Shown: piece by piece, positions 30,461 to 50,115 of the stretch
Layout: every line of letters begins with the position of its first letter
How positions within the stretch are numbered: position 1 is the first letter of the stretch
Virus record (IMG/VR): IMGVR_UViG_3300045988_162015
Strand: one strand, 5' to 3'
DNA length: 64,000 nt
Origin: a virus
Translations under genes and position numbers: made by a program
Notes under the pieces: model-generated
Seen by the model: only the letters and a program-made list of their open reading frames with translations
The model's database searches: none
Told to the model about the DNA's origin: nothing

Positions 30461-30685
30461 ATGTTTGGTTTTGATGATAGCTATTTTCTGTTCATGAATG
30501 AAGCAGAGGGTACTGGAATGGTAAACACTCGTACTGGATGTATTAATACTCTGGTACGTAAGATGCAAGAAAGTCCTCGATGGTATGTTGAGGAAAATTT
30601 TAATATTATGTGTGAAGAGTGCGGGATTGAAGATATTACACCTGCCGAAGAAGATATGGTATGGGAGATGTATAGCCGAGGATGA
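30461..30685 (+). CDS. hypothetical protein (74 aa)
   Basis: AAGGAGTAATTAATATG RBS. Confidence 0.5.
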   Translation: MFGFDDSYFLFMNEAEGTGMVNTRTGCINTLVRKMQESPRWYVEENFNIMCEECGIEDITPAEEDMVWEMYSRG

Positions 30686-32313
30686 AAGTTTATTTAAAAG
30701 GAATTGGTTTTAAGGATTATCGAAGAACTTATAGTCCAGTTTATGATTCTAAGGTCTATGATAAAGAAGCTTGGAAAGAACTACTAGAAGATTTTAACGA
30801 GAATGTTAAAGTAGGAACTTATAACAAATTGCCTTATGCCGATTGGAAAATTCTTCGTCTGATGGATGGAGATTACAAGGTAGTATGGTTTGAAATTGAT
30901 AATGTATATCTTGCTCCTATTGTAGTTCATATCCAAGAATTTAAATATTTAAAAGATTCAGATAGTTTTAGAATGGTAGGTACTGATAAGAAGTATGATA
31001 CCTTTGAAGCTTATTCATTTGGTGCATATTTAGCTGATATGCTGTTCTATGATTATTTTGATTGTGTGGAAACGGCGGAAACTCCTGGAAGGATAGATGA
31101 TTATAGACTATTTGGCTTGGATAATTTAGGAGCATATGACTCAGAAGATAATATCGGTTGGCGTGCTCTTAACTGGGCACTTAATCCCGCTGTGGAGGGC
31201 AAAACCGGTAAAATGATTTTTGAAAATGTAAAAGATAATATTAAGAATCTTAGTTATGAATTTGATAAAACTACTAAAATTCTTAATGATTGTTATAATA
31301 TCTATAAAGATAGTAATAAAGAATGGCTTAATACTGTTTACAAAGATGTAGATAGAGTAAAGACTTCGGCATCAGATTGTACAAATGTTGAAGTTAATCC
31401 TATTAGAGCGATTACAAAGGATGAAGCCCAGCAGTCAGTTCAGGATTTTCTGAATTCTCAAATTTCTACTGAAGCTTCTACAGCAGTTGCATCTACTGAT
31501 TGGAAATATAATACATCTATTTCTAAGACAGTGCCTATTGTTGGTGGAGGAGTTTCTGATTTTTCCACTATTAAAATTAGTAATGATGGCTCTTATGGCA
31601 CAGCCACTATTTCAATTGATGATAACTTAACTCATCGTATTGATACAATGGAAGAAAGAATTAATAAACTTGAAACAAACAATGATGATATGAAAGGTAA
31701 AGGAAATAATATGAAGATGTTTAATTTTGATTTTGGTCCGATTAAGGATAATGATGCTATTCGTATGTCGCCGTATGGTCTGGCTGTTAAGAATGTTAAT
31801 GGCACTTATCAGGCATATGATAAGAAAAATGGTGAGATTATGGATGTTGATGTTTTCAACTTCAAGGCTGATAATATGTTCTTCAAGATTCCTGTCGGCA
31901 TTGATGCAATTGAAGCCGGCGACGTAATCATCTTTAACAGACGCCCGTGTTTTGTATTCGGTTTCTCCGAGCAGGGTGATGTGATTGCAATTGATATTGC
32001 AATGGGTGAGAAGAAGACTATTATGCCGACCCGCAGCCCGTTTGGCTTTAATTTCATTACGAAGGTTATGTCTCTGGCAGACAATATGTTTGGCGATACT
32101 CCTTCTGCTGATAATCCTTTCGGTAATATGTGGATGTTTGCAATGATGGATGATAATTCTTCTATGAAGGATATGCTGCCGATGATGATGCTGATGAATG
32201 GCAAGGTCGGCAGTACAATGGACCCGATGATGCTGTACTTCATGATGAAGGACGGCAAGGGTGATGATGAAAGTATGCTTCCTCTTCTTCTTATGATGAA
32301 TATGAAGAAGTAA
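30682..32313 (+). CDS. large hypothetical protein (543 aa) with a Met-rich C-terminal tail
   Basis: ATGA coupling. The last ~90 aa contain about 25 Met residues, for example MMMLMNGKVGSTMDPMMLYFMMKDG...LLLMMNMKK. Confidence 0.5.
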   Translation: MKVYLKGIGFKDYRRTYSPVYDSKVYDKEAWKELLEDFNENVKVGTYNKLPYADWKILRLMDGDYKVVWFEIDNVYLAPIVVHIQEFKYLKDSDSFRMVGTDKKYDTFEAYSFGAYLADMLFYDYFDCVETAETPGRIDDYRLFGLDNLGAYDSEDNIGWRALNWALNPAVEGKTGKMIFENVKDNIKNLSYEFDKTTKILNDCYNIYKDSNKEWLNTVYKDVDRVKTSASDCTNVEVNPIRAITKDEAQQSVQDFLNSQISTEASTAVASTDWKYNTSISKTVPIVGGGVSDFSTIKISNDGSYGTATISIDDNLTHRIDTMEERINKLETNNDDMKGKGNNMKMFNFDFGPIKDNDAIRMSPYGLAVKNVNGTYQAYDKKNGEIMDVDVFNFKADNMFFKIPVGIDAIEAGDVIIFNRRPCFVFGFSEQGDVIAIDIAMGEKKTIMPTRSPFGFNFITKVMSLADNMFGDTPSADNPFGNMWMFAMMDDNSSMKDMLPMMMLMNGKVGSTMDPMMLYFMMKDGKGDDESMLPLLLMMNMKK

Positions 32314-32369
32314 GGTTGATATAAATATTTCTAAATATTGCCAGTTTAGAAAATCACTTCCTTTATGAA

Positions 32370-32405
32370 ATAGACCTCGGTTATCCGGGGTCTATTTTAT
32401 TTTTA
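32370..32405 (+). terminator. rho-independent terminator
   Basis: TAGACCTCGG...CCGGGGTCTA followed by TTTTATTTTT. Confidence 0.55.
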
Positions 32406-32445
32406 TAAAAAAATATTATAAAATATATATATAAATTAAAAGGAA
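32399..32445. promoter_or_regulatory. phage middle/late promoter motif
   Basis: TTTTTATAAAAAAATATTATAAAATATATATATAAATTAAAAGG. Confidence 0.45.
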
Positions 32446-32458: not shown

Positions 32459-34123
32459 ATGACAGATTTGAGGACTCTTATTCCAGAAGAAGAAAAGAAT
32501 CTGCTGCACGATTATATTAAAGAGTACCTTCATTCTGATAATTACTGTACTGTAGATGAAATTAATCATCTTCTGCGGTTTTGGGCTGCCGAAAAGCCTG
32601 ACCTGTATAAGCTGCTGGGCAACAATCTGATGGTTAAAGACCATATTGCTTATCAGGCATCTGAAGAGGATTTGATGGATAAGTTCAGTGAAATGTATGA
32701 AGAAATTTATAATAATCCTGAATTAGCAAACGTTAAAAAATTCATTGACTCTTACGAGCAGATTACTAATATTTATTATTCTTGGATGGATGCCACTCTT
32801 GATAAGGATGAACGGGCTATGTGTTGTAGCATGATTGAGCATTGCCTTGATAGTGAATCTCTCGTGGCCAATAAAAATGTGTATATGTTTGATTGGGGTC
32901 GCAAATCTGTTACTATTCGCCGTGGTCCGCATGCAGATACTTCAAAGCCGCTTGAACTGAAGAGTGATATGAAGTTGATGCGAATGATGGCTAAAATTGT
33001 CGATTGGTTTGAGTTGGACAAAGAAGCATTTGAGCAGTTTCGTATTCTTCATTCGCGTGTTTTGAATGATCGTATGATTAATGCTGATATTGTACTATCT
33101 ATTCATCCGCTTGATTATCTTACTATGAGTGACAATGCTTGTGATTGGGAGAGCTGTATGAACTGGTATCAGGGTGGCGATTATCGTCTTGGTACTGTTG
33201 AAATGATGAATTCTCCTGTCATCCTTGAAGCATATGTTGAATCCGAGCATCCTTATTGTCCCATTGACCGTGACAAAAGGACTTGGAGCAATAAGCGTTG
33301 GCGGTGTCTCTATATTGTTAATAGGGATATCATTACTGAAATCAAGCAGTATCCTTATAATAACATTTATCTGCGTGACTATGTGCTGAATAAGATTAAG
33401 CAGTTGGCTGAACAGAATATGGGTTGGCATTATGATGAAAAGATGTACGAGGTTTGGCAGAATCAGCCTAATGATACTGATTTTGGTCAGGTTTATATTC
33501 GCATGAGGACTGGAGCTATGTATAATGATTATTATGATAATCATTATGCTTATATCAATCCAGAAGTCAAAGAAGTAGAAGTTTACTATTCTGGTGTAGC
33601 TGAATGTATGTGTTGCGGCAAAGGCTACGAAGCTGATCCGAGTGGAAATGTAGATGCATTTGTAGAATGTGATAAAGTCGTATGTGCAACCTGCGAAGGC
33701 AAAGTACAGTGCGATGATTGTGGTTCTTGGATTGATAGTGAAGATGCTTGGTTTTGTAGTGAAGATGGGGCAACATATTGTAGCTGGTGTGCAGAGGGCC
33801 GCACCCAGATTTGTAGCTGCTGCGGAGAAACTAAATGGCTTGATTATGATTTCAAGAAGCAGGCTCTTCCCTATATGTTTGAAGTAAAAACTCCTAATGG
33901 TAAGCATCGTCGAGATGTTGGAAATCCGATTGATGTTTGCGATGATTGTTATGAAGACTATGATTTCGATGATGTACCGAAGGAGCCAGACCCGTGGGGC
34001 GATTTTCAGTATATTGATGTTGACAAGGTAGATAGGAAGGTATGGGAGCCATTTCTGTCCCTTGAAAGAATTGCTGATGCCAAGGAACGGTTAAAGGCAA
34101 CTTACCCTAATGATTATGTTTAG
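32459..34123 (+). CDS. large Cys-rich protein, family member A (HPLDYLTMSDN...WESCMNW core plus C-terminal CxxC zinc-ribbon repeats)
   Basis: 554 aa. Paralogous to 40422..42065 and 44661..45983. Confidence 0.55.
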   Translation: MTDLRTLIPEEEKNLLHDYIKEYLHSDNYCTVDEINHLLRFWAAEKPDLYKLLGNNLMVKDHIAYQASEEDLMDKFSEMYEEIYNNPELANVKKFIDSYEQITNIYYSWMDATLDKDERAMCCSMIEHCLDSESLVANKNVYMFDWGRKSVTIRRGPHADTSKPLELKSDMKLMRMMAKIVDWFELDKEAFEQFRILHSRVLNDRMINADIVLSIHPLDYLTMSDNACDWESCMNWYQGGDYRLGTVEMMNSPVILEAYVESEHPYCPIDRDKRTWSNKRWRCLYIVNRDIITEIKQYPYNNIYLRDYVLNKIKQLAEQNMGWHYDEKMYEVWQNQPNDTDFGQVYIRMRTGAMYNDYYDNHYAYINPEVKEVEVYYSGVAECMCCGKGYEADPSGNVDAFVECDKVVCATCEGKVQCDDCGSWIDSEDAWFCSEDGATYCSWCAEGRTQICSCCGETKWLDYDFKKQALPYMFEVKTPNGKHRRDVGNPIDVCDDCYEDYDFDDVPKEPDPWGDFQYIDVDKVDRKVWEPFLSLERIADAKERLKATYPNDYV

Positions 34124-34149
34124 TTTAAATTCTTGCCAAAATTGAATAC

Positions 34150-34195
34150 TCGAAAATTTATAAAAAATTTGATATAATATATATAGAAAGGATGG
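34150..34195. promoter_or_regulatory. phage promoter motif
   Basis: ATTTATAAAAAATTTGATATAATATATATAGAAAGGATGGGAG. Confidence 0.4.
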
Positions 34196-34202
34196 GAGAG
34201 AT

Positions 34203-34649
34203 ATGGAACACATTTATAGATTGACTTATGGACCTGACTACGAAGAGCAAGTACTTGGTTATCTCACTGAAGATAAGTTGAATGATTACCTTGAAGAGTT
34301 GTTTAATTCTGCTCTTATTCAGAGTAGTATTCGTAGCCATATTGAAACTCTTAAAGTGCAAAAAATGGCATATGAAACTCAACGGCATCATATTGTTCAA
34401 GACATGAATAAATGTCTTCCTATCCTTCAAGATGGCAAGACAAATCCTAAATATAAAGAAACTAAAAAAGAATACAGAAAATATGAACGAGCTGTTATTG
34501 ATTGTAAATGGCAGATAAAGAAAATAGATAAGCTACTTGAAGAATGTGATAAATGGACAGCAACTGATTGGCTTCATTGGACTGATTATAATTGGGAACC
34601 TATTGAACTTAATGTAGTCAGACCAGTTAATGAGGAGGAAGATTGGTAA
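34203..34649 (+). CDS. hypothetical protein, tandem paralog a (148 aa)
   Basis: LTEDKLNDYLEELFNS...DWLHWTDYNWEPI is shared with the next gene. Confidence 0.5.
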   Translation: MEHIYRLTYGPDYEEQVLGYLTEDKLNDYLEELFNSALIQSSIRSHIETLKVQKMAYETQRHHIVQDMNKCLPILQDGKTNPKYKETKKEYRKYERAVIDCKWQIKKIDKLLEECDKWTATDWLHWTDYNWEPIELNVVRPVNEEEDW

Positions 34650-35107
34650 TGACAATTTATAAGGTAAGCCGCGGCAATGCTTGGGATGAATATGACATTG
34701 CTTATCTTACAGAAGATAAGTTGGAAGAATATCTCAATGCTGTTTACAATAGCTCTTGGATGGAACGGCATAAGCATAATCATCTTGATGGTATTAATGA
34801 GACAGAGAAAGATTACAAAGAAAGTCTTGATAGATATATTCAAAGCTGTAATTTCTATCTTCATGCTCCAAAACATGGACAGTTAAGTAAAGAAGCTTCT
34901 AAAAATAATTTCAATCAGTGTGAACGAAAAATTATAGAAACACGCAATAGACTTCAGCAAATCCAAGAGATTAAAGAAGAAGTAGTCAATTGGAGCAAGG
35001 AAGATTGGCTGCATCATGCACATTATAATTGGGAACCCATCCGAATTAACGATATGGAAAATCTTGAAAGACCTGATGATGACAGAACAAGTGAGGATTG
35101 GATGTAA
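34643..35107 (+). CDS. hypothetical protein, tandem paralog b (154 aa)
   Basis: LTEDKLEEYLNAVYNS...DWLHHAHYNWEPI. Confidence 0.5.
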   Translation: MVMTIYKVSRGNAWDEYDIAYLTEDKLEEYLNAVYNSSWMERHKHNHLDGINETEKDYKESLDRYIQSCNFYLHAPKHGQLSKEASKNNFNQCERKIIETRNRLQQIQEIKEEVVNWSKEDWLHHAHYNWEPIRINDMENLERPDDDRTSEDWM

Positions 35108-35343
35108 TGGAAAAGAAAGAAATGGTAATTAAAATCCTTAAAGAAAGCGGCACTCTTACTGCAAAGCAAATTTCAGCATTTGCAAAGCGTAAGTATGATT
35201 TTGATATTACACCACAGGGTGCTTCGGGTGTGATGCGTGGCCTTATTGGTCAGGGGCTTGCGGCGAGTTCTAAAGATGGTAGTAATCAGACACGATACTG
35301 GCTTAATACTTGTACATGGAAGGATATGATGGCAAATGATTAA
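35107..35343 (+). CDS. small putative winged-helix-like protein (78 aa)
   Basis: KILKESGTLTAKQISAFAKRK. Weak helix-turn-helix-like pattern. Confidence 0.35.
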   Translation: MEKKEMVIKILKESGTLTAKQISAFAKRKYDFDITPQGASGVMRGLIGQGLAASSKDGSNQTRYWLNTCTWKDMMAND

Positions 35344-35566
35344 AAAATGTGTTATAACAATCCTATTGATTATAGCTGCCGGAATGATTCTTATTTCCTC
35401 TTGGAATTATACTTCTAATAGGATTCGTATTTTCCCTGATGCTATTGGTTCTCAAGGTGTTGAAATTCAAAAGCGAGATGGATATAAAATTGATCTTCAT
35501 CATCCGTATGAAATGGTTGAAACGGAAGAAGGTTATGATTTAATCATTCATTTTGTAGAGGAATAA
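35336..35566 (+). CDS. membrane protein (76 aa)
   Basis: N-terminal transmembrane segment. Confidence 0.45.
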   Translation: MIKKCVITILLIIAAGMILISSWNYTSNRIRIFPDAIGSQGVEIQKRDGYKIDLHHPYEMVETEEGYDLIIHFVEE

Positions 35567-35568
35567 GT

Positions 35569-35739
35569 ATGGCTGAATGTATTTATTTTAGCTATGAAGA
35601 TACAACTCCTTGGCATGGTGATGTATTTGACCATCCTGATTATGAGTATTATTGTTTAAAGAATGAAAAGAAAAAGAAAATTTTTTCTTGGTCCTGTTCA
35701 AAATGTCCTTATTATGAGGAGGGAAAAAATGATTCATAA
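35569..35739 (+). CDS. small Cys-containing protein (56 aa)
   Basis: GAGGAATAAGTATG RBS. Under 60 aa, so missed by the track. Confidence 0.35.
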   Translation: MAECIYFSYEDTTPWHGDVFDHPDYEYYCLKNEKKKKIFSWSCSKCPYYEEGKNDS

Positions 35740-36007
35740 AATGATTGCGTGCTCAGAAGAATGTCTTCGCTTGGCCTGTTGCAATGTTTGTAAATACGTT
35801 ATTCAAGATTATTTTTTTGAAAAAGACAAAGATGGGAATACACAGATTGTAAATGGTGGACCATATGGTTGTTCTCTTCATAAAGATAGCGACCATCAGA
35901 TGATTGCTGAAAGTTTTGGTTATTGTCCAGATTTTCATTGCAGAAATGCGACTGAAGATAATAAAGATAATTGGGTTGTAAAGGAGTTCGCAGATGAAGA
36001 GCATTAG
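35729..36007 (+). CDS. Cys-rich protein (92 aa)
   Basis: GGAGGGAAAAAATG RBS. In frame with track ORF 35663. Confidence 0.45.
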   Translation: MIHKMIACSEECLRLACCNVCKYVIQDYFFEKDKDGNTQIVNGGPYGCSLHKDSDHQMIAESFGYCPDFHCRNATEDNKDNWVVKEFADEEH

Positions 36008-36159
36008 AACTTGGGCACAACTCTATGACAGGCTGGGTAGACAGCTTCTGTGTAAAACAAGAGACCAAAGAATTATTTTAAAGAAAAATAATAAAGTAAT
36101 TCCATTATATTTAGTATATAATGAAAATGGAACGGATTGGTGGCTGGAGGAAGATACTG

Positions 36160-36405
36160 ATGACTGAATATAAATGTAAAGTATATTTAATTGAACCGCA
36201 GATAGGTTGGCATGGATTTAGTCTAGTTGCTGCCCTTGATGCTGAACATGCTAATCAAATTATTCGGAAAGCCGCAGGAGAGAGTAGATATTATTGGGGT
36301 TATTCGCATGTGCGAGAGTATGATGCTATTGATAATGTTTATTCTGATACTATTGGATTTGTATATGAAGGAATTTTTGAACACGAGGAGTTTTCAATGA
36401 TTTAA
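36160..36405 (+). CDS. hypothetical protein (81 aa)
   Basis: GGAGGAAGATACTGATG RBS. In frame with track ORF 36121. Confidence 0.45.
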   Translation: MTEYKCKVYLIEPQIGWHGFSLVAALDAEHANQIIRKAAGESRYYWGYSHVREYDAIDNVYSDTIGFVYEGIFEHEEFSMI

Positions 36406-36419
36406 GGAGTTGATATTTT

Positions 36420-37226
36420 ATGAATTATCATTCTGATAAATGGGTTATGGATAAGGTAGAAACTCATTTAGAAGCAGCTAATGTTAAGGGAGAAAATTGG
36501 GTTAGCTTAATGGCTTATGGTAGTCAGAATTATGGTCTTGATACTCAATCGTCTGATGTAGATACACGGCTTATTGTTCTTCCTTCATTTGAAGATATTG
36601 TATTAAATAAGAAGCCAGTATCTTATACCAAGGTTCTTCCTAATGAAGAGCATATTGATTTTAAGGATATTCGTTTGTTCATTGATTGTTTGAAGAAACA
36701 GAATATGGCTTATCTTGAATGCATCTTCACGTCTTATAAAATGGCATCAAGCACGTATTGGAATGAGTGGCAGGCACTGCTTAATGAGCGTGAAGCTATT
36801 GCACGCTATAATCCTTACAAGGCAGTTAAGACAATGAAGGGTATTGCTATGGAAAAATATCATGCAATGGAACATAGATATCCTACTAAAACTCATCTGA
36901 TTGATACATATGGTTATGATAGCAAGCAGCTTATGCATCTGCTTCGTATTGAAAGATACCTTGGACGTTATATTGATGGTGTTAAATATGCAGATTGTCT
37001 TCAAGCCCCAATGGGTGATTATCTTCTTAATGTAAAAAATTATCATTATGATCTTGAAACTGCACGAATTGTAGCCAATACTGCTATTAGTAATATTACA
37101 AGAGTAGCTGATGATTATTGTTCTAAGACTAAGGACGAAGGCAATGAAGAGCTTGAAGATTTTATGAATAAAGTTATTTATATTATTATGAAAAAAAGAA
37201 TTGTAAAGGAAATGTTAGATGTCTGA
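36420..37226 (+). CDS. Pol-beta-superfamily nucleotidyltransferase
   Basis: YGSQNYGLDTQSSDVDTRLIV is the G[SG]x(9-13)DxD nucleotidyltransferase signature. Confidence 0.55.
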   Translation: MNYHSDKWVMDKVETHLEAANVKGENWVSLMAYGSQNYGLDTQSSDVDTRLIVLPSFEDIVLNKKPVSYTKVLPNEEHIDFKDIRLFIDCLKKQNMAYLECIFTSYKMASSTYWNEWQALLNEREAIARYNPYKAVKTMKGIAMEKYHAMEHRYPTKTHLIDTYGYDSKQLMHLLRIERYLGRYIDGVKYADCLQAPMGDYLLNVKNYHYDLETARIVANTAISNITRVADDYCSKTKDEGNEELEDFMNKVIYIIMKKRIVKEMLDV

Positions 37227-37410
37227 AGATAATATGACTATTGAAATTGATAGTCGAGATATTGAAGAAATTGAAAATAATTTTGATGATCTTGGTAAAT
37301 GGTTGACTGAACATTTTACCAGATTTGGTGCTCAAGCTGTTGTGCTTAGTGCAGTTATAGAAAAAGTAGAAGAATTAAAGGAAGAGTTGGCTAAAGAAGA
37401 AAATACGTAA
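37219..37410 (+). CDS. acidic hypothetical protein (63 aa)
   Basis: Overlapping start. Confidence 0.4.
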   Translation: MSEDNMTIEIDSRDIEEIENNFDDLGKWLTEHFTRFGAQAVVLSAVIEKVEELKEELAKEENT

Positions 37411-37423
37411 GGAGGGAACTTCA

Positions 37424-38248
37424 ATGTTCAAGGACTGGGTTGTCCGAGGCGATTGTCATGGCGATTTCACATGGCTTAACGCAAGAATGTTTAAAATTTT
37501 AAATCCAAAAGACTACGCAATTATTATCCTTGGTGATGTAGGTTTTAATAGTGGCAATACATTCAGGGATGATATGAAGAAAAAGTATGCAAGCCAGTTT
37601 GGATATTCTATCTATTGCGTGCGTGGCAATCACGAGGTACGTCCTGAAAATGTTGAAGGTATGGAGCGTATTTGGGATAGTAATGTCCAAGCTAACGTAT
37701 GGTATGAGCCGGCCTACCCTCTGATTAGGTATTTTGACAATTATGGTATCTATTATCTTAAAACAGAAGATAAAGAATATCGCACATTGGTAATTTGCGG
37801 TGCTTATTCTATTGATAAATATTATCGCCTTAAAAATAATCTGCTCTGGTGGAAAGATGAGCAGTTGACTGATACAGAAAAATCAGAAGTAGAGAGACTT
37901 ATTCGGCAGACTAACAAGCATTTTGACCTTGTGCTCTCGCACACTTGCCCTTATTCATGGGAGCCAAGAGATTTATTTTTACCTTGTGTGGACCAATCTA
38001 CTGTTGATAACAGTATGGAATTATGGTTAGAAAATATAGAAAAAGATATAGATTGGAACATTTGGCTTTGGGCACATTTTCACTGTGATAGAATTCAAGG
38101 CCCTCATTGTGAAATTTTTTATAACAATATAGATTTTCTTTCTGAAATTTGGGATAGATGGAATAATAATGATAAAGAAAGAAAAGATAGAATGAAAAAA
38201 AGTTTAGTTTTTTTCATTGAAAATAAATGGTCCAAAGAGTTTAAATAA
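37424..38248 (+). CDS. calcineurin-like metallophosphoesterase (lambda Ser/Thr-phosphatase-like)
   Basis: Motifs RGDCHGDF (GDxHG), ILGDVGFN (GDxxxRG-like) and VRGNHE (GNHE). Confidence 0.65.
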   Translation: MFKDWVVRGDCHGDFTWLNARMFKILNPKDYAIIILGDVGFNSGNTFRDDMKKKYASQFGYSIYCVRGNHEVRPENVEGMERIWDSNVQANVWYEPAYPLIRYFDNYGIYYLKTEDKEYRTLVICGAYSIDKYYRLKNNLLWWKDEQLTDTEKSEVERLIRQTNKHFDLVLSHTCPYSWEPRDLFLPCVDQSTVDNSMELWLENIEKDIDWNIWLWAHFHCDRIQGPHCEIFYNNIDFLSEIWDRWNNNDKERKDRMKKSLVFFIENKWSKEFK

Positions 38249-38271
38249 TTTTTTATAATATTTATAATAAG

Positions 38272-38315
38272 TATGGAGAGTGGAATTTTTTCTCCACTCT
38301 CCATACTTATTTAAT
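38272..38315 (+). terminator. hairpin terminator
   Basis: 16 bp stem AAGTATGGAGAGTGGA/TCCACTCTCCATACTT. Confidence 0.55.
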
Positions 38316-38333
38316 TTATTAGGGAGACTATTT

Positions 38334-39110
38334 ATGGATAAAAAAACATCAAAAGATATTTAGGTTGGAGCAAAATTTGGAAGATGGACAATTCTTGAAA
38401 TAAATACTAAAAATCCTAAAAGTAAAGCAGCACGACCTCCTAGAGTTGCGTTATGTCAATGTGAATGTGGTACTAAACGATATAAAGAATATAGAGATTT
38501 ATATTCAGGACGCTCTCAATCTTGTGGCTGTAGAGCCAGAGAACAGATAATATAGATGAATTATAATAAAGGAATCATCGAAGAAGGAACAAGATTTGGG
38601 TATTTAACATTTGTTAAAGATTTAGGATATAGAAAACAACAATGTCGAGATAAAAAAGAACGATGGAGTTTATGCCAATGTGATTGTGGAAATTTTATTG
38701 AAGTTAATAATAATAATTTAAAAAGTGGTGGAACTACTTCTTGCGGTTGTGTAAAATCTAGAGGAGAGAGAATTATAGGAGAACTTTTAAGGAAAAATAA
38801 TATAAATTTTTCTACTCAATATACTTTTTCAGATTTAAGAAGTGACAAAAATACTTTATTACGTTTCGATTTTGCTATTTTTATTAATAATCAGTTATAT
38901 GAATTAATAGAGTTTGATGGCAGGCAGCATTTCCAAGGTCCTGATGCTACTTGGAAAAACTCTGATAGTTTAGAAACTATTTAGCGAAGAGATAATTTAA
39001 AAAATGAATATTGTAAAAATCATAATATAAAATTAGTTAGAATACCTTATACTCAAATTAATAATATTAATTTAAAAACATTAGAATTAGATAACATTGA
39101 CCGCATCTAA
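38334..39110 (+). CDS. homing-endonuclease-like protein: two zinc-ribbon modules plus a Vsr/DUF559-like PD-(D/E)xK domain, with 3 in-frame TAG codons
   Basis: Tandem FGRWTIL...CQCECG...SCGC and FGYLTFV...CQCDCG...SCGC modules, then FDFAIF...IEFDGRQH. TAG codons at 38361, 38553 and 38982 link track ORFs 38556..38984 and beyond in one frame. It may instead be two genes split at 38553. Confidence 0.45.
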
Positions 39111-39203
39111 ACGGTCAATTCTTTTTAGCTATTAATTTTGACTTTTCATATAAAATATAGTATTATTTACTAGCTATTTATTTTATATTAAAGGAGAATT
39201 AAT

Positions 39204-39791
39204 ATGCGAAAATTCTTAAATGTCATTCTTGTAATCGCTATGGTTGCTTTAATGATGATGCCAGTAAATGCTTTTAACGTAATAAGTTATAGTGCTGATG
39301 GCGGAGACAGATTAGAAATCGAATACGGTCCTACAGAATATTGTAATTGCGGAATCGACCATACTAATAAACCCTTTGAATGGTGGACTGATATTACATC
39401 TACTGATAGTCCTCAATGGGATTTAATTCATAATTATTTAACTGTTTAGGAGAACGGCACATTAGCTACTGATGATGGCTATACTGCTTGTGCTCTTGGA
39501 AGGTATTTCGGTAAGATTGGTTCAAAATGGATTTTTATTTGTGAAGATGGTTCAGAAATTAAGGTAGTTAAAGCTGATGAAAAGCAAGACCGCCATACAA
39601 AAAACTGGGATTTAATTCACGGTATTATTTGTGATGAATTAATTGAGCTTGTTGTAGATAGTAAGATTAGTCAAACTTGCCCAACTGGTAATTTCAAAGA
39701 CCTTGAAGGTTTTGAAGGTAACATAATTGGGTGGAAAGAAGTCCTTAATAATGAATTGCCCGATTTGTTAAAAGGAACAATTTATAAATAA
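39204..39791 (+). CDS. secreted/membrane hypothetical protein (195 aa) with an in-frame TAG at 39447
   Basis: AAAGGAGAATTAATATG RBS. N-terminal signal-like hydrophobic segment. The frame continues for 114 codons past the TAG. Confidence 0.4.
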
Positions 39792-39817
39792 AATAATATT
39801 AAATGAGGTAATATAAA

Positions 39818-40318
39818 ATGAGCGTAGTTGCCGCGAAGGTATATGATAATAATATTCAAATGTCTGCAGATAGTATTTTAACTAATGGATGGGAAAAAGA
39901 CCCCAATACTAACTTTACTAAAATTATTTCTTTAAATGATATGATTGTTGGTAGTGTTGGTAATGCGGATGAATGTAGTCTTATGTGGCTGTATATGGAA
40001 AATCATCAACCGCTTAATGCTACAGAGAGAGAAATTCTTAATTATTTTGCTGAATTTGGTAAATGGAAAGGTGATATTGCTAATACTCGTGATATTAAGA
40101 ATAGTTATTTAATGGCTTTTGAAGGTCATCTTTTCCAAATTTGTGGATATTTGGTTAGAGAAATTAAAGATTATTATGCCATCGGTGCTGGTGCTCCTTA
40201 TGCTTTGACAGCACTTTATCTTGGACATGATTCAGAAGAAGCTGTTAAAGTTTCTTGTGCTATGTGTTGCTTCGTTTGTGAACCTATTGTGACATATAAT
40301 CAGAAAAAAGATAATTAA
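39818..40318 (+). CDS. HslV/proteasome-beta-like Ntn-hydrolase peptidase
   Basis: SVVAAKVYDNNIQMSADSILTNG...MIVGSVGNADEC...YYAIGAGAPYALTALYLG follows the HslV pattern. The N-terminal residue after Met is Ser. Confidence 0.45.
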   Translation: MSVVAAKVYDNNIQMSADSILTNGWEKDPNTNFTKIISLNDMIVGSVGNADECSLMWLYMENHQPLNATEREILNYFAEFGKWKGDIANTRDIKNSYLMAFEGHLFQICGYLVREIKDYYAIGAGAPYALTALYLGHDSEEAVKVSCAMCCFVCEPIVTYNQKKDN

Positions 40319-40327
40319 ACATAGATA

Positions 40328-40365
40328 AAAAGGGATAAAGATTTGATTCTTTATCCCTTTTTTAT
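40328..40365 (+). terminator. rho-independent terminator
   Basis: AAGGGATAAAG...CTTTATCCCTT followed by TTTTATTTTTAT. Confidence 0.65.
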
Positions 40366-40410
40366 TTTTATAAAAAAATATTATAAAATATTTATAGAAA
40401 AAATAAAGGG
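40364..40410. promoter_or_regulatory. phage middle/late promoter motif
   Basis: TTTTTATAAAAAAATATTATAAAATATTTATAGAAAAAATAAAGGGAG. Confidence 0.45.
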
Positions 40411-40421
40411 AGTAAATAATC

Positions 40422-42065
40422 ATGACACCTTATGAAGCATTAACGGCACAAGATAAGAAATATATTACTGAATATATTGAAACATGGGGTGGCGTTAATT
40501 CCCCTATTAAACTCAAAGCATCTCTTGATTATATCCTTCGAGAATGGAATAAGAGTAAACAAACTCTATTTAATATTTTTGGCGAAAAGTTAATGCTGGA
40601 GAAGGAAATCCAGGTTGAAGATGGAGATAATAAAAAAGTAAGAGAAGTTAATGAGTATCTCTATAGCACTAATCCTGGTATCAATTTTATTACAAATCTT
40701 CGTAGATTATTTGAATCTGATACTACTTATTTTGAAAATACTTATGCAACAAGGCATGCAATATATAATTTAATTCAAGCTTATCAACTTTTTACTAATA
40801 GAGTTGTTAAAGGATTTACTTATCACAATAAAGATGGTAAAGTAGTTAAAGTTCCAGAAGGAGCTAAGGTAATGAAAGTTCTTCAGAAAATGGCTAAAGA
40901 ATTTGATTTGCCTGATTTTGAAATTTTTCGCAATCATGTTTCACGTATTACTGAAGTACGTAAATCTAAAATTAAGTTTACATTATCTATTCATCCCTTG
41001 GATTATATGACTATGAGCGATAATGTAAATGGTTGGGAAAGTTGTATGAACTGGACTCAAGGGCCAGGCTCCTATCGTGCTGGTACTATTGAGATGATGA
41101 ACAGTCCTGTGGCTGTTGTAGCTTATATTACTACTAAGCCTTATTATCCAGCAAATACTTCAATTGAATGGACTTCCAAGAGTTGGAGAGAATTGATTAT
41201 TGTTCATCCAAATGCTATTTGTTCTGTAAAATCTTATCCTTATTACAATATTGCATTTGATAAAGCTCTTGTTAATTGGCTTGCTAATTTGGTTGAAGAA
41301 AAAACTGAATGGCGTTATAACAGAAAAAAGCCACAAGAAAGTTTAGATAGTTGTTCTTATATCGAAGCTTGGCAAGATAAAGAAGATGAAGATAATCATT
41401 TCCTGTTGGATTTTGAAACAAATGAAATGTATAATGATTTTGGTAATACAGAGAATTATGGAATTTTTTCAATTAATCCACCAGACAATAAATATCGTAC
41501 ATTCGCAATTAATTATTCTGGTTTAATGACTTGTATGTGCTGCGGCGGAAAAGATTATTGGGATGATGATACTGAAGCAGTTGTTTGCGAAGAATGCGAC
41601 CCACCTGAGTATTGTTATTGCTGTGGCGAACGAATTAATGCAAGTAATTCAATTGAAGTAGATGGCGAATTAGTTTGTGAAGATTGTTATCATGATTTGC
41701 CTAGATGTATGTGTTGTGAAGATGCTCATTTTGAGGATGATGTTACTCCGGTATTCGTTGGACACATCGATAATCAAACTATTAATATTGACTATGATGA
41801 GCATTATATTTGCAACGAATGTCTTGCCAATAAAGAATTGCCGAAATATCTTGATGATTCTAACGTTAGGACTAAAATAACTAAATTAGATGGCGGTCCT
41901 TATTATGGTAGGACAGCTCTCTTGATTGAAGAAGATGATTTAGATGTAGAAGCTAAAAAGATAATTTCTAATGATCCTTATTCTACTATAATTACTGATT
42001 ATACTTATGCTATTCGTCGTTATCCTGAACGTTTTTATAGTTACAATACATCAATCGCAATTTAA
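40422..42065 (+). CDS. large Cys-rich protein, family member B (HPLDYMTMSDN...WESCMNW plus C-terminal zinc ribbons)
   Basis: 547 aa. Paralog of 32459..34123. Confidence 0.55.
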   Translation: MTPYEALTAQDKKYITEYIETWGGVNSPIKLKASLDYILREWNKSKQTLFNIFGEKLMLEKEIQVEDGDNKKVREVNEYLYSTNPGINFITNLRRLFESDTTYFENTYATRHAIYNLIQAYQLFTNRVVKGFTYHNKDGKVVKVPEGAKVMKVLQKMAKEFDLPDFEIFRNHVSRITEVRKSKIKFTLSIHPLDYMTMSDNVNGWESCMNWTQGPGSYRAGTIEMMNSPVAVVAYITTKPYYPANTSIEWTSKSWRELIIVHPNAICSVKSYPYYNIAFDKALVNWLANLVEEKTEWRYNRKKPQESLDSCSYIEAWQDKEDEDNHFLLDFETNEMYNDFGNTENYGIFSINPPDNKYRTFAINYSGLMTCMCCGGKDYWDDDTEAVVCEECDPPEYCYCCGERINASNSIEVDGELVCEDCYHDLPRCMCCEDAHFEDDVTPVFVGHIDNQTINIDYDEHYICNECLANKELPKYLDDSNVRTKITKLDGGPYYGRTALLIEEDDLDVEAKKIISNDPYSTIITDYTYAIRRYPERFYSYNTSIAI

Positions 42066-42125
42066 TTGAAATTTTAAAAATAAAATAATATAATATATAC
42101 ATAAAATAAAGGAAAAATAAAAGGA
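42066..42125. promoter_or_regulatory. phage promoter motif, variant B
   Basis: AAATTTTAAAAATAAAATAATATAATATATACATAAAATAAAGGAAAAATAAAAGGAG. Confidence 0.4.
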
Positions 42126-42136
42126 GTTATTAAATT

Positions 42137-42532
42137 ATGGAAAAGAAGTTTACGAAGCGTGAGCTGTATGATGCTCTGATTGGCAAGCTGTGCGGTGAAG
42201 AGGTTGAGGTTGATGCACAGACTCTGGTTGATTTTTGTCAGGCAGAGATTGACCGTATTGATCAGCGTAATGCCAAGGACCGCGAGAAGCGTGAAGCCAA
42301 GAAGGCTGAGCCTGATGTCGCACGCGAGAAGGTATTTGCCGCAGTTGACGACCAGTTCCGTACTGCTGATGTGATTCATGATTCTATTGATGATGAAGAT
42401 ATTACCCTGGGTAAGGTTCGTCATCGTCTGGCCGGTCTTGTCCGCGATGGTCTGGTAAAGAAGCAGGAGATGAAGATTCCTGGCGGCGAGGGTGAGAAGA
42501 CGCGGCACGCCATGTGCTACGCAAGAGCTTAA
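42137..42532 (+). CDS. hypothetical charged protein (131 aa; GC-richer)
   Basis: AAAGGAGTTATTAAATTATG RBS. Confidence 0.5.
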   Translation: MEKKFTKRELYDALIGKLCGEEVEVDAQTLVDFCQAEIDRIDQRNAKDREKREAKKAEPDVAREKVFAAVDDQFRTADVIHDSIDDEDITLGKVRHRLAGLVRDGLVKKQEMKIPGGEGEKTRHAMCYARA

Positions 42533-42540
42533 TAAACGAA

Positions 42541-42570
42541 GGGTCGGGAAACCGACCCTTTTGTTTTGCC
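42541..42570 (+). terminator. rho-independent terminator
   Basis: AGGGTCGGGAAACCGACCCT followed by TTTGTTTTG. Confidence 0.65.
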
Positions 42571-42699
42571 ATTTTAAGGTGCTGCTCCGGCCAAGGTCAA
42601 GCGTCTATACCGAACATCCAAATTGAAAAGCGTTTTAAGAATTTTTTTGACTAAATGCTAATAATATGGTAAAATAATATAAAAAAGGAGTAGATAAAA

Positions 42700-43527
42700 A
42701 TGAAAGTTTGTTTAAGACATAATCAAGAAGAACAATATCTCCAAAAGGCAGATTAGGTTGAGGTTAAATGGGCATATATTGACCAACTTCTTGATTTAGT
42801 AGAAAAATATCCTGATAAAGATTTTGTCATAGATGCTCCAAAAGGCAAACCAATGGATTGGAAAAGTATAGCCACTTGTAAGGCCGGCCTACATTAGGGT
42901 CATACCTTTTATATCCGGCTACATGATTTAAATCCATTGCTTACATTACGCTGGATGGAGAAATACGATTTTAAATTTTTTTATAGTGAACCAGCAAAAA
43001 CATATTATGAGTTATATAATCTAAAAAAATTAGGTGTGTCATATGCTTATATTGATGCTCCCATTTTCTTTGATTTAAATGAAGTAAAAAAAGTAGATAT
43101 TCCTTTAAGACTTGTGCCAAATCGGGCATATATTCAAGGGCATATTCCACAAATGAGTGGCTTACATGGCACTTGGGTTCGTCCAGAAAAGCTTGATATT
43201 TATGAACCATATTTTGATGTTTGTGAATTTGAAAATGATGGACCTACGCAAGAACGAGCCTTCTACCGCATTTATTTTGAAGATAAGTCTTGGCCGAATG
43301 ACATGAATTCATTAATTTTTGGTCTTAATACTAATATTGATGATAGATTAGTATATGAAGGTCTTGATGAAATGCGGCTTAATTGTAAACAAGTATGTGA
43401 AACGCCAAAACCTTATTGTCAAATGTGTGATAAAGTATTGTATTTTGAACGTGCCGGACGTCAATGGGCTAAGGAATATATTGCTGAGCACGAGAAAGAA
43501 GATCAAGAACAGATAAGCCCTAATTGA
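42700..43527 (+). CDS. hypothetical protein (275 aa) with 2 in-frame TAG codons (42754, 42895)
   Basis: AAAAAAGGAGTAGATAAAAATG RBS. The frame joins track ORF 42937 through the TAGs. Confidence 0.45.
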
Positions 43528-43575
43528 TTCTTTAATAAAATTATTATATAATATTTATATAATAATAGAAGGGAA
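43528..43575. promoter_or_regulatory. phage promoter motif, variant B
   Basis: TTCTTTAATAAAATTATTATATAATATTTATATAATAATAGAAGGG. Confidence 0.45.
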
Positions 43576-43581
43576 TAAGAA

Positions 43582-44580
43582 ATGGGTAAAAAAGTTTTAG
43601 TTCCTGAGTTTACTGAAAATTGTAGAGGGCTTTTGGAAGGGCTATTCAAGATTAGTGAAGTAGGTCTTTTGAAAGCTCTTGGTGATTTTGTATCTAATAA
43701 ATATTCTAATGTAGAGATTACAGAAGATTATGTATATGCTGAAGGCAATATTCCTGTAATGCTTATCGCACACGTAGATACTGTATTTAGACAGCCAATT
43801 CGTCAATTTACTTATAATGAAAAAAGAGCTGTTTATAAAGGCAAGGAAGGTCTTGGAGCAGACGATAGAGCAGGTGTTTTTGCGATTATTCAGATTTTAC
43901 GCAAAAAGTATAGACCTTATGTTCTTTTTACAACAGATGAAGAAATGGGTGGCTATGGGGCACATATATTTGTTGAAGAGCATCCAGTAGCTCCAAATAT
44001 TAAGTACATGATTGAGCTTGATAGAGCTGGGGAAAGAGATTGTGTCTTCTATGAGTGTGAAAATTTTACATTCATGGATTATGTTGAAAGTTTTGGATTT
44101 AAGCAAGCAATTGGATCATTTACAGATATTAGTATTATTATGCCTGAATGGGAAATTGCCGGAGTAAATTTATCAGTTGGCTATCATCATGAACATACTC
44201 AAAATGAAGATTTGCATATTAGAACATTGTATAATACAATTAATAAAGTATGTAAAATGCTTGATGATATCGAAAATGCAGATAAATATAAGTTTATTCC
44301 CAGCAAGGAATATCTTCAGTGGATTACATTAACTAATAAATATCATATGCCTTATGATTTTGATGATGATAAACTTCTTAATTGTAGTTTTTGTAATCAG
44401 TTGTATTATGAGTGGGAAGATTTTCCTCTTGATATTGATGGAGTAAAGGTCCATGTATGTCCTGAATGCTTGGCTCTTGACCCTAATATTCATCAATGTG
44501 AAAAATGTTATAATTTATTTTATTCAAATAATATGAAAGAAAGAGTATGTAATAAATGTCGAGTCCCTGTTGTAATTTAA
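43582..44580 (+). CDS. Zn-dependent peptidase (M20/M28/M42-like) with a C-terminal zinc ribbon
   Basis: IAHVDTV, GADDRAG, EEMGGYG and HHEHT fit the metal-ligand pattern of co-catalytic Zn peptidases. The C-terminus carries CxxC...CxxC. Confidence 0.5.
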   Translation: MGKKVLVPEFTENCRGLLEGLFKISEVGLLKALGDFVSNKYSNVEITEDYVYAEGNIPVMLIAHVDTVFRQPIRQFTYNEKRAVYKGKEGLGADDRAGVFAIIQILRKKYRPYVLFTTDEEMGGYGAHIFVEEHPVAPNIKYMIELDRAGERDCVFYECENFTFMDYVESFGFKQAIGSFTDISIIMPEWEIAGVNLSVGYHHEHTQNEDLHIRTLYNTINKVCKMLDDIENADKYKFIPSKEYLQWITLTNKYHMPYDFDDDKLLNCSFCNQLYYEWEDFPLDIDGVKVHVCPECLALDPNIHQCEKCYNLFYSNNMKERVCNKCRVPVVI

Positions 44581-44660
44581 ATGAACTTAAAGAACAAGTA
44601 AAGAAGGTTATTGCCTATTCATAGGGGCTGGACATTAACCTTTTAAATATTGATAAATTA

Positions 44661-45983
44661 ATGAATGATTGGGAAGAGAATAAATGCAAATTTTATAGTA
44701 GGCTTCCTGGTAATAAATTAATTTATCAAAGTCATACACCTATTACAATGTCTATTTCAGAAGATGATAAAAAAGCTGAATTAGATTGTTTTATTGACAA
44801 CATTCGTTGGCGTTATGGCTTATTTGAATTAAGAGATTTTGTTGAAAATAATAGAAAAAATTTTTATAATAATATTTTAAGCGAAGATTATTCAATGAAT
44901 AATGGAACTATCATTCCAAAAGGAATGAAAATAATTAAAGCATTTAAATATTTTGTAGAAGATAAGGAAATTCTTACTGAAATACAAGATAAGGCTAGTA
45001 TGCTTATTCAAAACACAAAAATTAGTGGATATTTTTGTATGTCAGTTCATCCATTGGATTATCTTAGTTTAAGTGAAAATACACATAACTGGCGGTCATG
45101 CCATGCACTTGATGGAGAATACCGTGCTGGTAATTTATCTTATATGGCAGATAATTGTACAATTATATGCTATATTAAGAGTGAACATAATGCGGTTTTA
45201 CCTAGATTCCCAGATGATGTACCATGGGCAGATAAGAAGTGGCGTATGCTTCTTCATGTATCTGATGATGATACTATGGTTATTTCAGGCCGGCATTATC
45301 CTTATGAAAGTAAAGGATTGCAAGATTTTGCTCTTGAATTATATGAAACATTTTTCGGGCAAGGATACCGTTTTACTGATTGGTGTCATGAAAAATATAA
45401 TACATTTACAATAAATGATAAAATCTTTTCTAATGATAGCCGTTTATTGCCTACTGGATATGTAATGACTCCAGATATTAAGGTTATTGTTGACCCAAAA
45501 AATCCTTTACATTATAATGACCCTCTTCATTCTACTGTATATGACTATTGGTTTAGTATTGCTTATAGTGAACCTTATTGGCATGAAGAAGGTATTCCGC
45601 AAGATAAATTAATTCTTCCAAGAACTCGTACCACTACTAAAGTTAATATAGGACATGATGTAAAATGCTGTATTTGTGGTAAAAATGATTGTGTTTTAAC
45701 AGATACGATGCTTTGTATTGATTGTGAACTTAAATATGGTACAGAAGAAACAGAAGATTTTACTTTCTGCAGAGGATGCGGTAGACGTATTTATATTCCT
45801 GAAGCAATATCATTAGATGATGATGATGGTTATGTATGCCGCAGTTGCGGAGACAATTATTAGATATGTGATAATTGTAATATGTATTATGATAAAAAAG
45901 ATTTAATTTATGATGAAGAAAACAATGCTTACTACTGTGAAGCTTGTTATGATGAAATTTTATTTGATAGGGAGAATGAATAA
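44661..45983 (+). CDS. large Cys-rich protein, family member C (HPLDYLSLSEN...WRSCHAL plus zinc ribbons), with an in-frame TAG at 45861
   Basis: The frame continues past the TAG into 41 more codons of CxxC ribbons (ICDNCNMYY...CEACYDE), which matches the C-termini of paralogs A and B. Confidence 0.5.
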
Positions 45984-46291
45984 TGGCAAAAGGTAGTATT
46001 GCTAAAGATGCTGTTGTAGAAAAAATTGCAGAAGCATTTGGCGAAGATTTCCTCGGATCTTATGATAAAAAGTATTATGTGCGAGCTAAAGAAAATGGAC
46101 AATATATTCAGATTGCAATTAGTCTAACTTGTCCAAAAACACCTGTTGAATCTTTTGGTTCTATGGATTTTGGCAATAATGAACTTAATTTTGAAGATGG
46201 AGCAACAATTCAGCCTGCAAAAAAGGCTACAGAAATTAGTCCAGAAGAAGAAGAAAATTTAAAAACTTTAATTGAAAAGCTTGGTTTGTAA
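45983..46291 (+). CDS. hypothetical protein (102 aa)
   Basis: TAATG coupling. Confidence 0.5.
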   Translation: MAKGSIAKDAVVEKIAEAFGEDFLGSYDKKYYVRAKENGQYIQIAISLTCPKTPVESFGSMDFGNNELNFEDGATIQPAKKATEISPEEEENLKTLIEKLGL

Positions 46292-49822: not shown

Positions 49823-49848
49823 TATTCCAATAGAAAGGAATTAAAATA

Positions 49849-50088: not shown

Positions 50089-50115
50089 TAAAAACATTAG
50101 AGAGGGAGGGGAAGA

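What the first reader, a model, noticed from the sequence alone, without database searches (positions are those of the whole stretch)
32459..45983. Three large paralogs (554, 547 and 440 aa) that share an HPLDY(L/M)(T/S)(M/L)S(D/E)N...W(E/R)SC core and C-terminal tandem CxxC zinc ribbons, each behind its own phage promoter
The family members are at 32459, 40422 and 44661. Each repeats the same architecture: a divergent N-terminal region, a conserved central block and 4-8 zinc-ribbon pairs. Three copies of a 400-550-aa protein is unusual for a phage. It suggests target-specific variants such as anti-defence, host-takeover or nucleic-acid-binding factors. I cannot place the family.
Basis: seen in the sequence. 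Interest (0 to 1): 0.55.

Follow-up and report, generated by a model that had tools for sequence, protein, structure and literature searches.

The report
Undescribed zinc-ribbon protein family in gut phages
The three look-alike genes are real members of a very large, unnamed phage protein family with an enzyme-like core and three zinc ribbons; they sit in a seven-gene block conserved across about 130-200 kb gut phages, and their biochemical job is still unknown.

Summary
Three paralogs share the exact HPLDY...W(E/R)SC block and C-terminal CxxC ribbons. BLASTP gives A-B 9e-52, A-C 2e-18 and B-C 6e-17.

The phage reads TAG as Gln, so the true products are 572, 547 and 475 aa. C starts at 44556, not 44661. 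Each paralog has exactly six CxxC knuckles, which means three zinc ribbons. Only A and B sit behind the repeated 27-nt phage promoter-like motif. C overlaps the 3' end of a metallopeptidase gene in another unit.

There are two ancient subfamilies, long and short. Both lie in a fixed module: Met-rich protein, long, 131-aa protein, 275-aa Cys-cluster protein, MH-clan peptidase, short, 102-aa protein. This order recurs in about 100 distant phage contigs. A and B are an old, retained duplication. dN/dS is 0.16-0.21.

My best guess is zinc-ribbon-tethered enzymes acting with the peptidase on a macromolecule. That mechanism is inferred, not shown.

The parts
32459..34177 (+). Paralog A, long type, 572 aa. 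It is 554 aa if TAG at 34121 is read as a stop. Helical N-domain aa 1-146, conserved alpha/beta core aa 147-372 (HPLDY...WESC at nt 33104-33157), three Zn ribbons aa 383-497 (nt 33605-33949), basic C-terminal tail.
   Evidence: AF2 pLDDT 93; tail conserved; the TAG-free homologue P0004 has an equivalent tail; source scaffold aa.
40422..42065 (+). Paralog B, long type, 547 aa, no in-frame TAG. HPLDY...WESC at nt 40992-41045. Zn ribbons at nt 41532-41822. This copy keeps the ancestral position next to the 131-aa gene.
44556..45983 (+). Paralog C, short type, 475 aa, with sense TAGs at 44622 and 45861. HPLDY...WRSC at nt 45048-45101. Zn ribbons at nt 45666-45947. Its start overlaps the peptidase gene's 3' end by 25 nt.
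   Evidence: phrog_18912, 1e-19; P0253, 96% identical, 475 aa.
32400..32426 (+). Phage promoter-like 27-mer in front of A, directly after terminator hairpin 32365-32400.
40365..40391 (+). Identical 27-mer in front of B, directly after terminator hairpin 40327-40362.
30682..32313 (+). Module gene 1: 543-aa protein with a conserved beta-rich domain and a Met-rich C-terminus. It sits immediately upstream of the long-type gene in most relatives.
42137..42532 (+). Module gene 3: 131-aa protein, conserved after the long-type gene. Followed by a terminator at 42538-42561.
42700..43527 (+). Module gene 4: 275-aa protein with an invariant C-x3-C-x6-C-x2-C cluster. Sense TAGs at 42754 and 42895. dN/dS 0.017.
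43582..44580 (+). Module gene 5: MH-clan (M28/M20-like) metallopeptidase. It has the HxD, GADD, EE and H motifs and two C-terminal Zn ribbons (four CxxC). It lies directly upstream of the short-type gene in 79 of 80 IMG/VR loci.
45983..46291 (+). Module gene 7: 102-aa protein (MAKG...LTCPK...LGL). Its start codon overlaps C's stop. Terminator at 46288-46318.
34203..40318 (+). Variable island that separates A from B. It holds small orphan genes, an RlaP-like nucleotidyltransferase, a metallophosphoesterase, an HNH homing endonuclease, a 195-aa orphan protein and an HslV-like peptidase. This island is absent between the single long-type gene and the 131-aa gene in most relatives.

Best explanation
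What is shown: A, B and C are two 'long-type' members and one 'short-type' member of a very large, undescribed phage protein family. They are fixed parts of a seven-gene module expressed from the low-TAG (early/middle) part of an about 188 kb TAG-to-Gln recoded human-gut phage. Each protein has a variable helical N-domain and a conserved alpha/beta core carrying about 25 invariant, mostly polar residues (H216, D219, S224, N226, S232, C233, R243, K279, R282, Y298, Y355, D357 in A numbering). Each ends in three Cys4 zinc ribbons.

What is inferred: the core is a catalytic or ligand-binding pocket on a distantly GNAT-like scaffold. The zinc ribbons, and in A a basic tail, tether it to a macromolecule. 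The N-domain sets target specificity. The long and short types are non-redundant partners that work with the tightly linked MH-clan metallopeptidase. I favour a protein substrate, namely processing or modification of host or phage protein termini, but this is unproven.

A and B come from an old duplication of the long type that was kept because the two copies diverged in their N-domains.
For: - Paralogy and shared architecture. hhalign of long against short profiles gives probability 100%, E 2.6e-47, 387 columns.
- Invariant polar residues persist across sequences down to about 23% identity.
- A high-confidence fold: pLDDT 93 for the full length and 88 for the core alone.
- The Zn part matches LIM and double-zinc-ribbon profiles. 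Each paralog has six CxxC knuckles.
- Purifying selection: dN/dS is 0.16-0.21 overall and 0.10-0.11 in the core.
- Module order recurs in about 20 MAG contigs and 80 IMG/VR contigs. The peptidase directly precedes the short type in 79 of 80 loci, and a long type lies upstream in 74 of 80.
- Linkage of peptidase and family members also holds in distant Enterococcus phages.
- The peptidase keeps its metal and catalytic motifs when aligned with PepT 3gb0.
- The three-copy layout is retained in relatives whose A type is 39-47% identical.
- The A clade, B and the short type separate in a tree.
Against: - No activity, ligand or partner is shown.
- The GNAT CoA-binding loop signature is absent. The family has Y-P-Y-x-N where GNATs have Q/R-x-x-G-x-G/A.
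- I could not inspect model coordinates, so clustering of the invariant residues into one pocket is inferred from secondary-structure order only.
- Some lineages lack the short type or the peptidase (L016, L019, L023, L024, L026). The partnership is therefore not obligatory.
- Every other module protein is also an orphan, so context gives little functional leverage.
Confidence: 0.4

Rival explanations
1. They are non-catalytic nucleic-acid-binding or regulatory factors, for example middle/late transcription, replication or translation-associated factors. The three zinc ribbons and A's basic tail would bind DNA or RNA, and the conserved core would be a protein-interaction domain.
For: - There are tandem Cys4 ribbons. 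The weak PDB profile hits for the short type are ribosomal or RNA-binding Zn-ribbon proteins.
- Weak Foldseek hits go to topoisomerase I, which has Zn-ribbon regions.
- The distribution and fixed position look like a core gene.
- The neighbouring 131-aa protein has a C-terminal region that looks like a winged helix. This is by eye and untested.
Against: - All those hits are insignificant and explained by Cys spacing.
- The strongest conservation is in the core, not the ribbons: H, D, S, N, S, C, R, K, R, Y and D are invariant and dN/dS is 0.10. That pattern is more typical of an active site.
- LIM-like modules usually bind proteins.
Confidence: 0.25
2. They are anti-defence or host-takeover inhibitors whose paralogs each neutralise a different host target.
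For: - They lie in the early/middle, low-TAG region.
- In this and related phages the region also carries a T7 Gp5.9-like gene, a Lar restriction-alleviation gene and a SAM synthetase.
- The N-domains diverge most and evolve faster, with dN/dS 0.19-0.30 against 0.10 for the core.
Against: - They hold a fixed syntenic position in about 100 diverse phage contigs, usually as one long and one short copy. Anti-defence genes are typically patchy.
- There is no sign of positive selection.
- There is no PADLOC or other defence-related similarity.
- The A/B duplication is ancient and stable.
Confidence: 0.15
3. They are bona fide GNAT acyl-CoA N-acetyltransferases that acetylate a host or phage protein.
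Against: - No Pfam acetyltransferase model matches any of 58 members even at E 1.
- The pyrophosphate-binding Q/R-x-x-G-x-G/A loop is missing.
Confidence: 0.07
4. They are virion or assembly proteins.
For: They are large and multi-copy. Tail-fibre genes lie 10 kb downstream.
Against: - They lie upstream of the TAG-rich late block, with 1.8 TAG per 1000 codons against 8.7.
- They are surrounded by early-type genes and have their own middle-type promoters.
- No structural PHROG matches them.
Confidence: 0.05

Closest known systems
GNAT (Gcn5-related N-acetyltransferase) fold superfamily, e.g. RimJ 6c30, RimL 1s7f, Gcn5 1ygh; also the GNAT-like FemA/FemX and ATE1 aminoacyl-tRNA transferases
   Different: - No sequence-profile match exists.
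- The CoA pyrophosphate-binding loop motif is absent.
- A roughly 35-residue conserved insert (HPLDY...WESC...YRxG) has no GNAT counterpart.
- The domain is flanked by a 146-aa helical domain and three Zn ribbons.
LIM domains and double zinc ribbons (e.g. CRP2 1cxx; Pfam LIM, DZR)
   Same: Consecutive CxxC...CxxC knuckles with 14-22-residue spacers. The profile hit to CRP2 LIM has E 2.5e-7.
   Different: - All ligands are Cys.
- The linker between fingers is 5 residues rather than 2.
- There are three ribbons, not two.
- Pfam LIM is matched below threshold and in only 7 of 58 members.
PHROG phrog_18912 (unknown function), with the Enterococcus phage EF1, EF5, VRE9 and H1 hypothetical proteins such as ASZ76701 and ASZ76699
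   Same: The short-type paralog C matches phrog_18912 at 1e-19. The Enterococcus phage genes flank an M28-like peptidase gene, as in the window.
   Different: - Identity is only about 24-27%.
- The Enterococcus proteins are shorter (335-399 aa).
- No function is annotated.
- Long-type A and B match no PHROG.
MH-clan metallopeptidases (Pfam Peptidase_M28; PepT 3gb0) - for the linked neighbour, not for the paralogs
   Same: The neighbour at 43582-44580 passes the Pfam M28 threshold and keeps the metal-ligand and catalytic motifs.
   Different: It carries two extra C-terminal Zn ribbons. The paralogs themselves are unrelated to it.

Membership tests
GNAT acyl-CoA N-acyltransferase superfamily | GNAT fold (beta1-alpha1-alpha2-beta2-4-alpha3-beta5-alpha4-beta6) recognised by structure comparison | tested here: inconclusive
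   [not shown]
GNAT acyl-CoA N-acyltransferase superfamily | Pyrophosphate-binding loop Q/R-x-x-G-x-G/A between beta4 and alpha3 | tested here: not met
   The family consensus at the equivalent place is IKxYPYxNxxL, with no Gly-rich loop. The placement rests on secondary-structure order.
GNAT acyl-CoA N-acyltransferase superfamily | Match to a Pfam acetyltransferase, FemAB or ATE profile | tested here: not met
   No such family appeared at E up to 1 for A, B and C or for 58 members.
GNAT acyl-CoA N-acyltransferase superfamily | Acyl-transfer activity or CoA binding | not testable with these tools
   This needs biochemistry.
LIM domain | Two contiguous zinc fingers, C-x2-C-x16-23-H/C-x2-C-x2-C-x2-C-x16-21-C-x2-C/H/D | tested here: inconclusive
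   A has C383-x2-C-x22-C-x2-C-x5-C-x2-C-x19-C-x2-C, so the linker is 5 residues rather than 2. The PDB profile hit to CRP2 has E 2.5e-7. Pfam LIM is sub-threshold and found in 7 of 58 members.
PHROG phrog_18912 (unknown function) | Profile match | tested here: met
   C matches at E 1.2e-19 over residues 87-359 of the 440-aa version. A and B do not match.
Known phage housekeeping families (primase, portal, polymerase and so on) | Any profile or fold match | tested here: not met
   [not shown]
Known anti-phage defence or counter-defence components (PADLOC-DB) | Profile match | tested here: not met
   There were 0 families at E up to 1.
Peptidase M28/M20 (MH clan) - neighbour gene 43582-44580 | Pfam gathering score and the metal-ligand/catalytic motifs HxD, D, EE, H | tested here: met
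   PF04389 scored 32.1 bits against a cut-off of 21.3. HVDTV, GADDRAG, DEEMGG and GYHHEHT align with PepT 3gb0.

The most novel reading that the evidence does not exclude
The module is a phage-run system that remodels protein N-termini. The MH-clan aminopeptidase would trim substrates. The long- and short-type proteins would be a new branch of GNAT-like, CoA-independent transferases, in the manner of Fem, ATE1 or L/F-transferases that use aminoacyl-tRNA, and would add or modify terminal residues. This could redirect host or phage proteins to degradation or protect them from it. In this phage TAG suppression could also gate the system, because the 275-aa gene and C need TAG read-through while B does not.
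Probability: 0.08. Interest if true: 0.8.

Novelty: categorically new. Interest (0 to 1): 0.5.

Why it matters
This is one of the larger protein families in human and animal gut phage metagenomes that still has no name, domain model or solved relative. Thousands of 50%-identity clusters exist, and the 90% clusters around A and C each hold about 1,600 sequences.

The family is confidently foldable, carries an enzyme-like set of invariant residues and is locked into a seven-gene module that behaves like a core function of a whole clade of 130-200 kb phages of gut Bacillota. Working out its activity would annotate thousands of genes at once and could reveal a new enzymatic step in phage infection.

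'New' here means an undescribed family and module. It does not mean a demonstrated new mechanism.

Tried and rejected
- PcfJ-like protein, which I recalled from memory for an HP.D...SC motif: no Pfam hit in 58 members.
- Double-psi-barrel RNA polymerase, via the 'MYNDY' motif: only one Asp is invariant and the fold is alpha/beta.
- Plasmid or bacterial origin: no tblastn hit in PLSDB. All 24 genome-contig hits are MAG contigs; seven lie on contigs of 150-176 kb and most carry the same phage module.
- Cultured phages: A has no hit. The core domain gives only E of about 0.3 in seven Enterococcus phages. C reaches 7e-13.
- Searching with the Enterococcus phage EF1 homologue found 9 unnamed proteins.
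- Names in clusters: only 'hypothetical protein'.
- Module partners: the 102-aa and 275-aa proteins have no Pfam or PDB profile match. The 275-aa protein has no phage hit. The Met-rich protein's domain hits only Bacillus phage G gp39 and one other hypothetical protein.
- U32-peptidase idea for the 275-aa protein: not supported by Pfam.
- I could not walk the rest of the 188 kb scaffold, because only window proteins may be looked up.
- Literature searches found nothing on the family.
Full report
**1. Observation**

Table-11 ORFs exist at 32459-34123 (554 aa), 40422-42065 (547 aa) and 44661-45863 (400 aa). Pairwise BLASTP gives:
- A-B: 31% identity over 447 residues, E 9e-52.
- A-C: E 1.7e-18.
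- B-C: E 5.5e-17.

Identity is lowest in the N-terminal 146 residues (17-24%), highest in the core (27-42%) and about 30% in the Cys-rich part. The paralogy and the three-part architecture are therefore real and far beyond chance.

**2. Gene models and genetic code**

TAG is a sense codon in this phage:
- + strand ORFs at 46.6-63.5 kb carry up to 8 in-frame TAGs.
- TAG density is 8.7 per 1000 codons after 46.3 kb and 1.8 before it.
- The SAM synthetase gene has TAG at codon 21. To my knowledge the MetK signature GHPDKxCDQxSD has Gln there.

C's frame is open from ATG 44556 if TAG 44622 is read through. The extra 35 residues align with the family N-terminus. That TAG falls on a near-invariant Gln: 88 of 93 short-type homologues have Gln there, encoded 52 times by CAA, 25 by CAG and 11 by TAG.

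A's table-11 stop is also TAG. The 17-residue basic extension is conserved in the homologues P0001 and P0002, and the TAG-free homologue P0004 has an equivalent tail.

The window comes from a 187,676-bp human-gut scaffold whose deposited gene calls are 572, 547 and 475 aa. The correct products are therefore A 32459-34177, B 40422-42065 and C 44556-45983.

**3. Transcription units**

The 27-mer TTTTTATAAAAAAATATTATAAAATAT occurs 7 times in the window against 0 expected. Exact copies lie 30-32 nt upstream of the A and B start codons, each immediately after a terminator hairpin.

C has no such element. It overlaps the last 25 nt of the peptidase gene at 43582-44580. By terminator positions (42538, 46288) it belongs to a unit made of the 275-aa gene, the peptidase, C and the 102-aa gene.

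**4. Architecture and structure**

Each paralog has exactly six CxxC knuckles, which means three Cys4 ribbons. The ribbons give weak LIM and double-zinc-ribbon profile hits.

An alignment of 58 long-type proteins shows 46 invariant columns. When C is added, 25 core positions stay invariant. These include K172, S199, S214, H216, P217, D219, S224, N226, W230, S232, C233, Y242, R243, G245, Y259, W276, K279, R282, Y298, P299, Y355 and D357 in A numbering.

AlphaFold2 with this alignment gives pLDDT 93 and pTM 0.78 for A, and pLDDT 88 for the core alone.

Searches against solved structures gave:
- Foldseek: nothing better than E 0.26.

The core is at most distantly GNAT-like. By secondary-structure order, the HPLDY...WESC...YRxGT block occupies the alpha1-alpha2 region. 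The place of the CoA-binding Gly loop is taken by Y-P-Y-x-N. I could not view coordinates, so this mapping is an inference.

**5. Family size and distribution**

- A alone finds 652 proteins and C finds 1,616. None has a name or a Pfam domain.
- A profile search of 1.84 billion cluster representatives finds 4,970 at E 1e-3, 3,270 at 1e-10 and 2,006 at 1e-30. The weakest of these may match only the Zn ribbons.
- Pfam, NCBIfam and PADLOC give nothing. Only C hits a PHROG of unknown function.
- GenBank phages: only seven Enterococcus phages and one faecal contig, at about 24% identity.
- Plasmids: nothing.
- Genome hits are all gut MAG contigs, the longest of them 150-176 kb, mostly binned to Bacillota.
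- IMG/VR hits are contigs up to about 200 kb.
- The long and short profiles are homologous over 387 columns (probability 100%, E 2.6e-47).

**6. Context**

BLASTP of window genes against the related loci shows a fixed order:
1. 543-aa Met-rich protein
2. long type
3. 131-aa protein
4. 275-aa Cys-cluster protein
5. MH-clan peptidase with two Zn ribbons
6. short type
7. 102-aa protein

This order is seen at 30-45% identity. In 80 IMG/VR loci anchored on the short type, the peptidase directly precedes it in 79 loci. A long type lies upstream in 74 loci, and 11 have two. The full seven-gene string is the commonest pattern.

The window lineage has two long types. A stays beside the Met-rich gene and B beside the 131-aa gene, with a 6-kb variable island between them. 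Relatives whose A type is only 39-47% identical keep the same three-copy layout. In a neighbour-joining tree, A's clade, B and the short type are separate, so the duplication is old.

Against the 77%-identical relative, dN/dS is 0.17 for A, 0.21 for B and 0.16 for C. By region it is 0.10-0.11 in the core and 0.19-0.30 in the N-domains. In Enterococcus phage EF1 two distant members flank an M28-like gene. The peptidase keeps the HxD, GADD, EE and H motifs.

**7. Interpretation**

Shown:
- a real, ancient, selectively maintained family with two subfamilies;
- a high-confidence fold without close solved relatives;
- a conserved module tightly linked to a predicted active metallopeptidase.

Inferred: the invariant polar residues form a catalytic or ligand site; the ribbons tether the protein to a macromolecule; the N-domains give specificity; and the long type, short type and peptidase act in one pathway.

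I put 0.4 on this enzyme-in-a-module reading. I put 0.25 on a non-catalytic nucleic-acid or protein-binding role, 0.15 on anti-defence, 0.07 on a canonical acetyl-CoA GNAT and 0.05 on a structural role.

The anti-defence idea is weakened by the fixed synteny, the near-universal presence in this clade and the absence of diversifying selection. It is kept alive by the early-region location next to Gp5.9-like, Lar-like and SAM-synthetase genes.

One further inference follows from the code. C and the 275-aa gene each need two TAG read-throughs, and A needs one for its tail, whereas B, the peptidase and the small genes need none. Full activity of the module may therefore wait for the code switch described for recoded phages (bioRxiv 10.1101/2021.08.26.457843).

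**8. Novelty**

The family and its module are not in any library searched and have no described relative. In that limited sense they are categorically new. Orphan phage families are common, and no mechanism is demonstrated, so the interest score is moderate at 0.5.

Noticed in passing
window 25889-25891; 44622-44624; whole window: There is direct evidence that TAG encodes Gln. TAG sits at the Gln of the MetK motif GHPDKVCDQVSD, and at a Gln conserved in 88 of 93 short-type homologues. TAG use is 1.8 per 1000 codons before 46.3 kb and 8.7 after it. No suppressor tRNA(CUA) lies in the window.
   Followed up: partly
window 14378, 20577, 23269, 27741, 32400, 40365, 49517 (+ strand): The 27-nt AT-rich motif TTTTTATAAAAAAATATTATAAAATAT occurs 7 times against 0 expected, four of them exact copies. 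The two copies examined (before A and B) lie right after terminator hairpins. It is probably a phage middle promoter with no -35-like TTGACA.
   Followed up: partly
window 43582-44580: An MH-clan (M28/M20-like) peptidase with intact metal motifs carries two C-terminal Zn ribbons. Related peptidase genes occur in 274 GenBank phage records, including KP34-like Klebsiella phages, Pectobacterium, Bacillus, Lactococcus and Thermus P23-45, all without a known role.
   Followed up: partly
window 30682-32313: A 543-aa protein has a Met-rich C-terminus with (D/N)MLP(L/M)MMM-type repeats. Several homologues end in Cys/His-rich tails, which suggests metal binding. Its conserved central domain matches Bacillus phage G gp39.
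   Followed up: partly
window 38280-39110: An HNH/homing endonuclease gene with 3 in-frame TAGs is bracketed by terminator-like hairpins at 38266 and 39096. It is absent at this place in the 77%-identical relative L001, so it is a recent mobile insertion.
   Followed up: partly
window 46664-48629: A radical SAM/SPASM-like enzyme (8 in-frame TAGs) is followed by a 216-aa protein. On the source scaffold that protein carries the precomputed Pfam hit tSAM_targ_Cxxx_rpt, so this looks like a RiPP-like maturase and substrate pair in a phage.
   Followed up: no
window 49748-55625: An array of 12 tRNA genes (Ile-UAU, Phe, 2 Leu, Val, Glu, Asp, Ala, Asn, Met, Ser, Trp) lies between the module and the tail-fibre genes.
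   Followed up: no
window 18670-20019, 29256-29801, 36420-37226, 37424-38248: There is a set of RNA-repair-type genes: RNA ligase, a PNK-like ATPase, an RlaP nucleotidyltransferase and a metallophosphoesterase. An HslV-like peptidase lies at 39818-40318.
   Followed up: no
window 34203-34649 and 34643-35107: Two adjacent small paralogous genes (148 and 154 aa) share a C-terminal W..DW.HW..YNWEPI motif. They lie just downstream of A and have no family match.
   Followed up: no
window 22303-22536: A stand-alone 78-aa ORF with three CxxC knuckles weakly matches the Zn-ribbon part of the family profile (E 5e-4).
   Followed up: no
window 14000-18000, minus strand 14679-15329 and 15626-16147: GC skew is locally inverted here, and two minus-strand ORFs carry 9-10 in-frame TAGs each. 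They may be heavily recoded genes on the opposite strand within the otherwise + strand early region.
   Followed up: no
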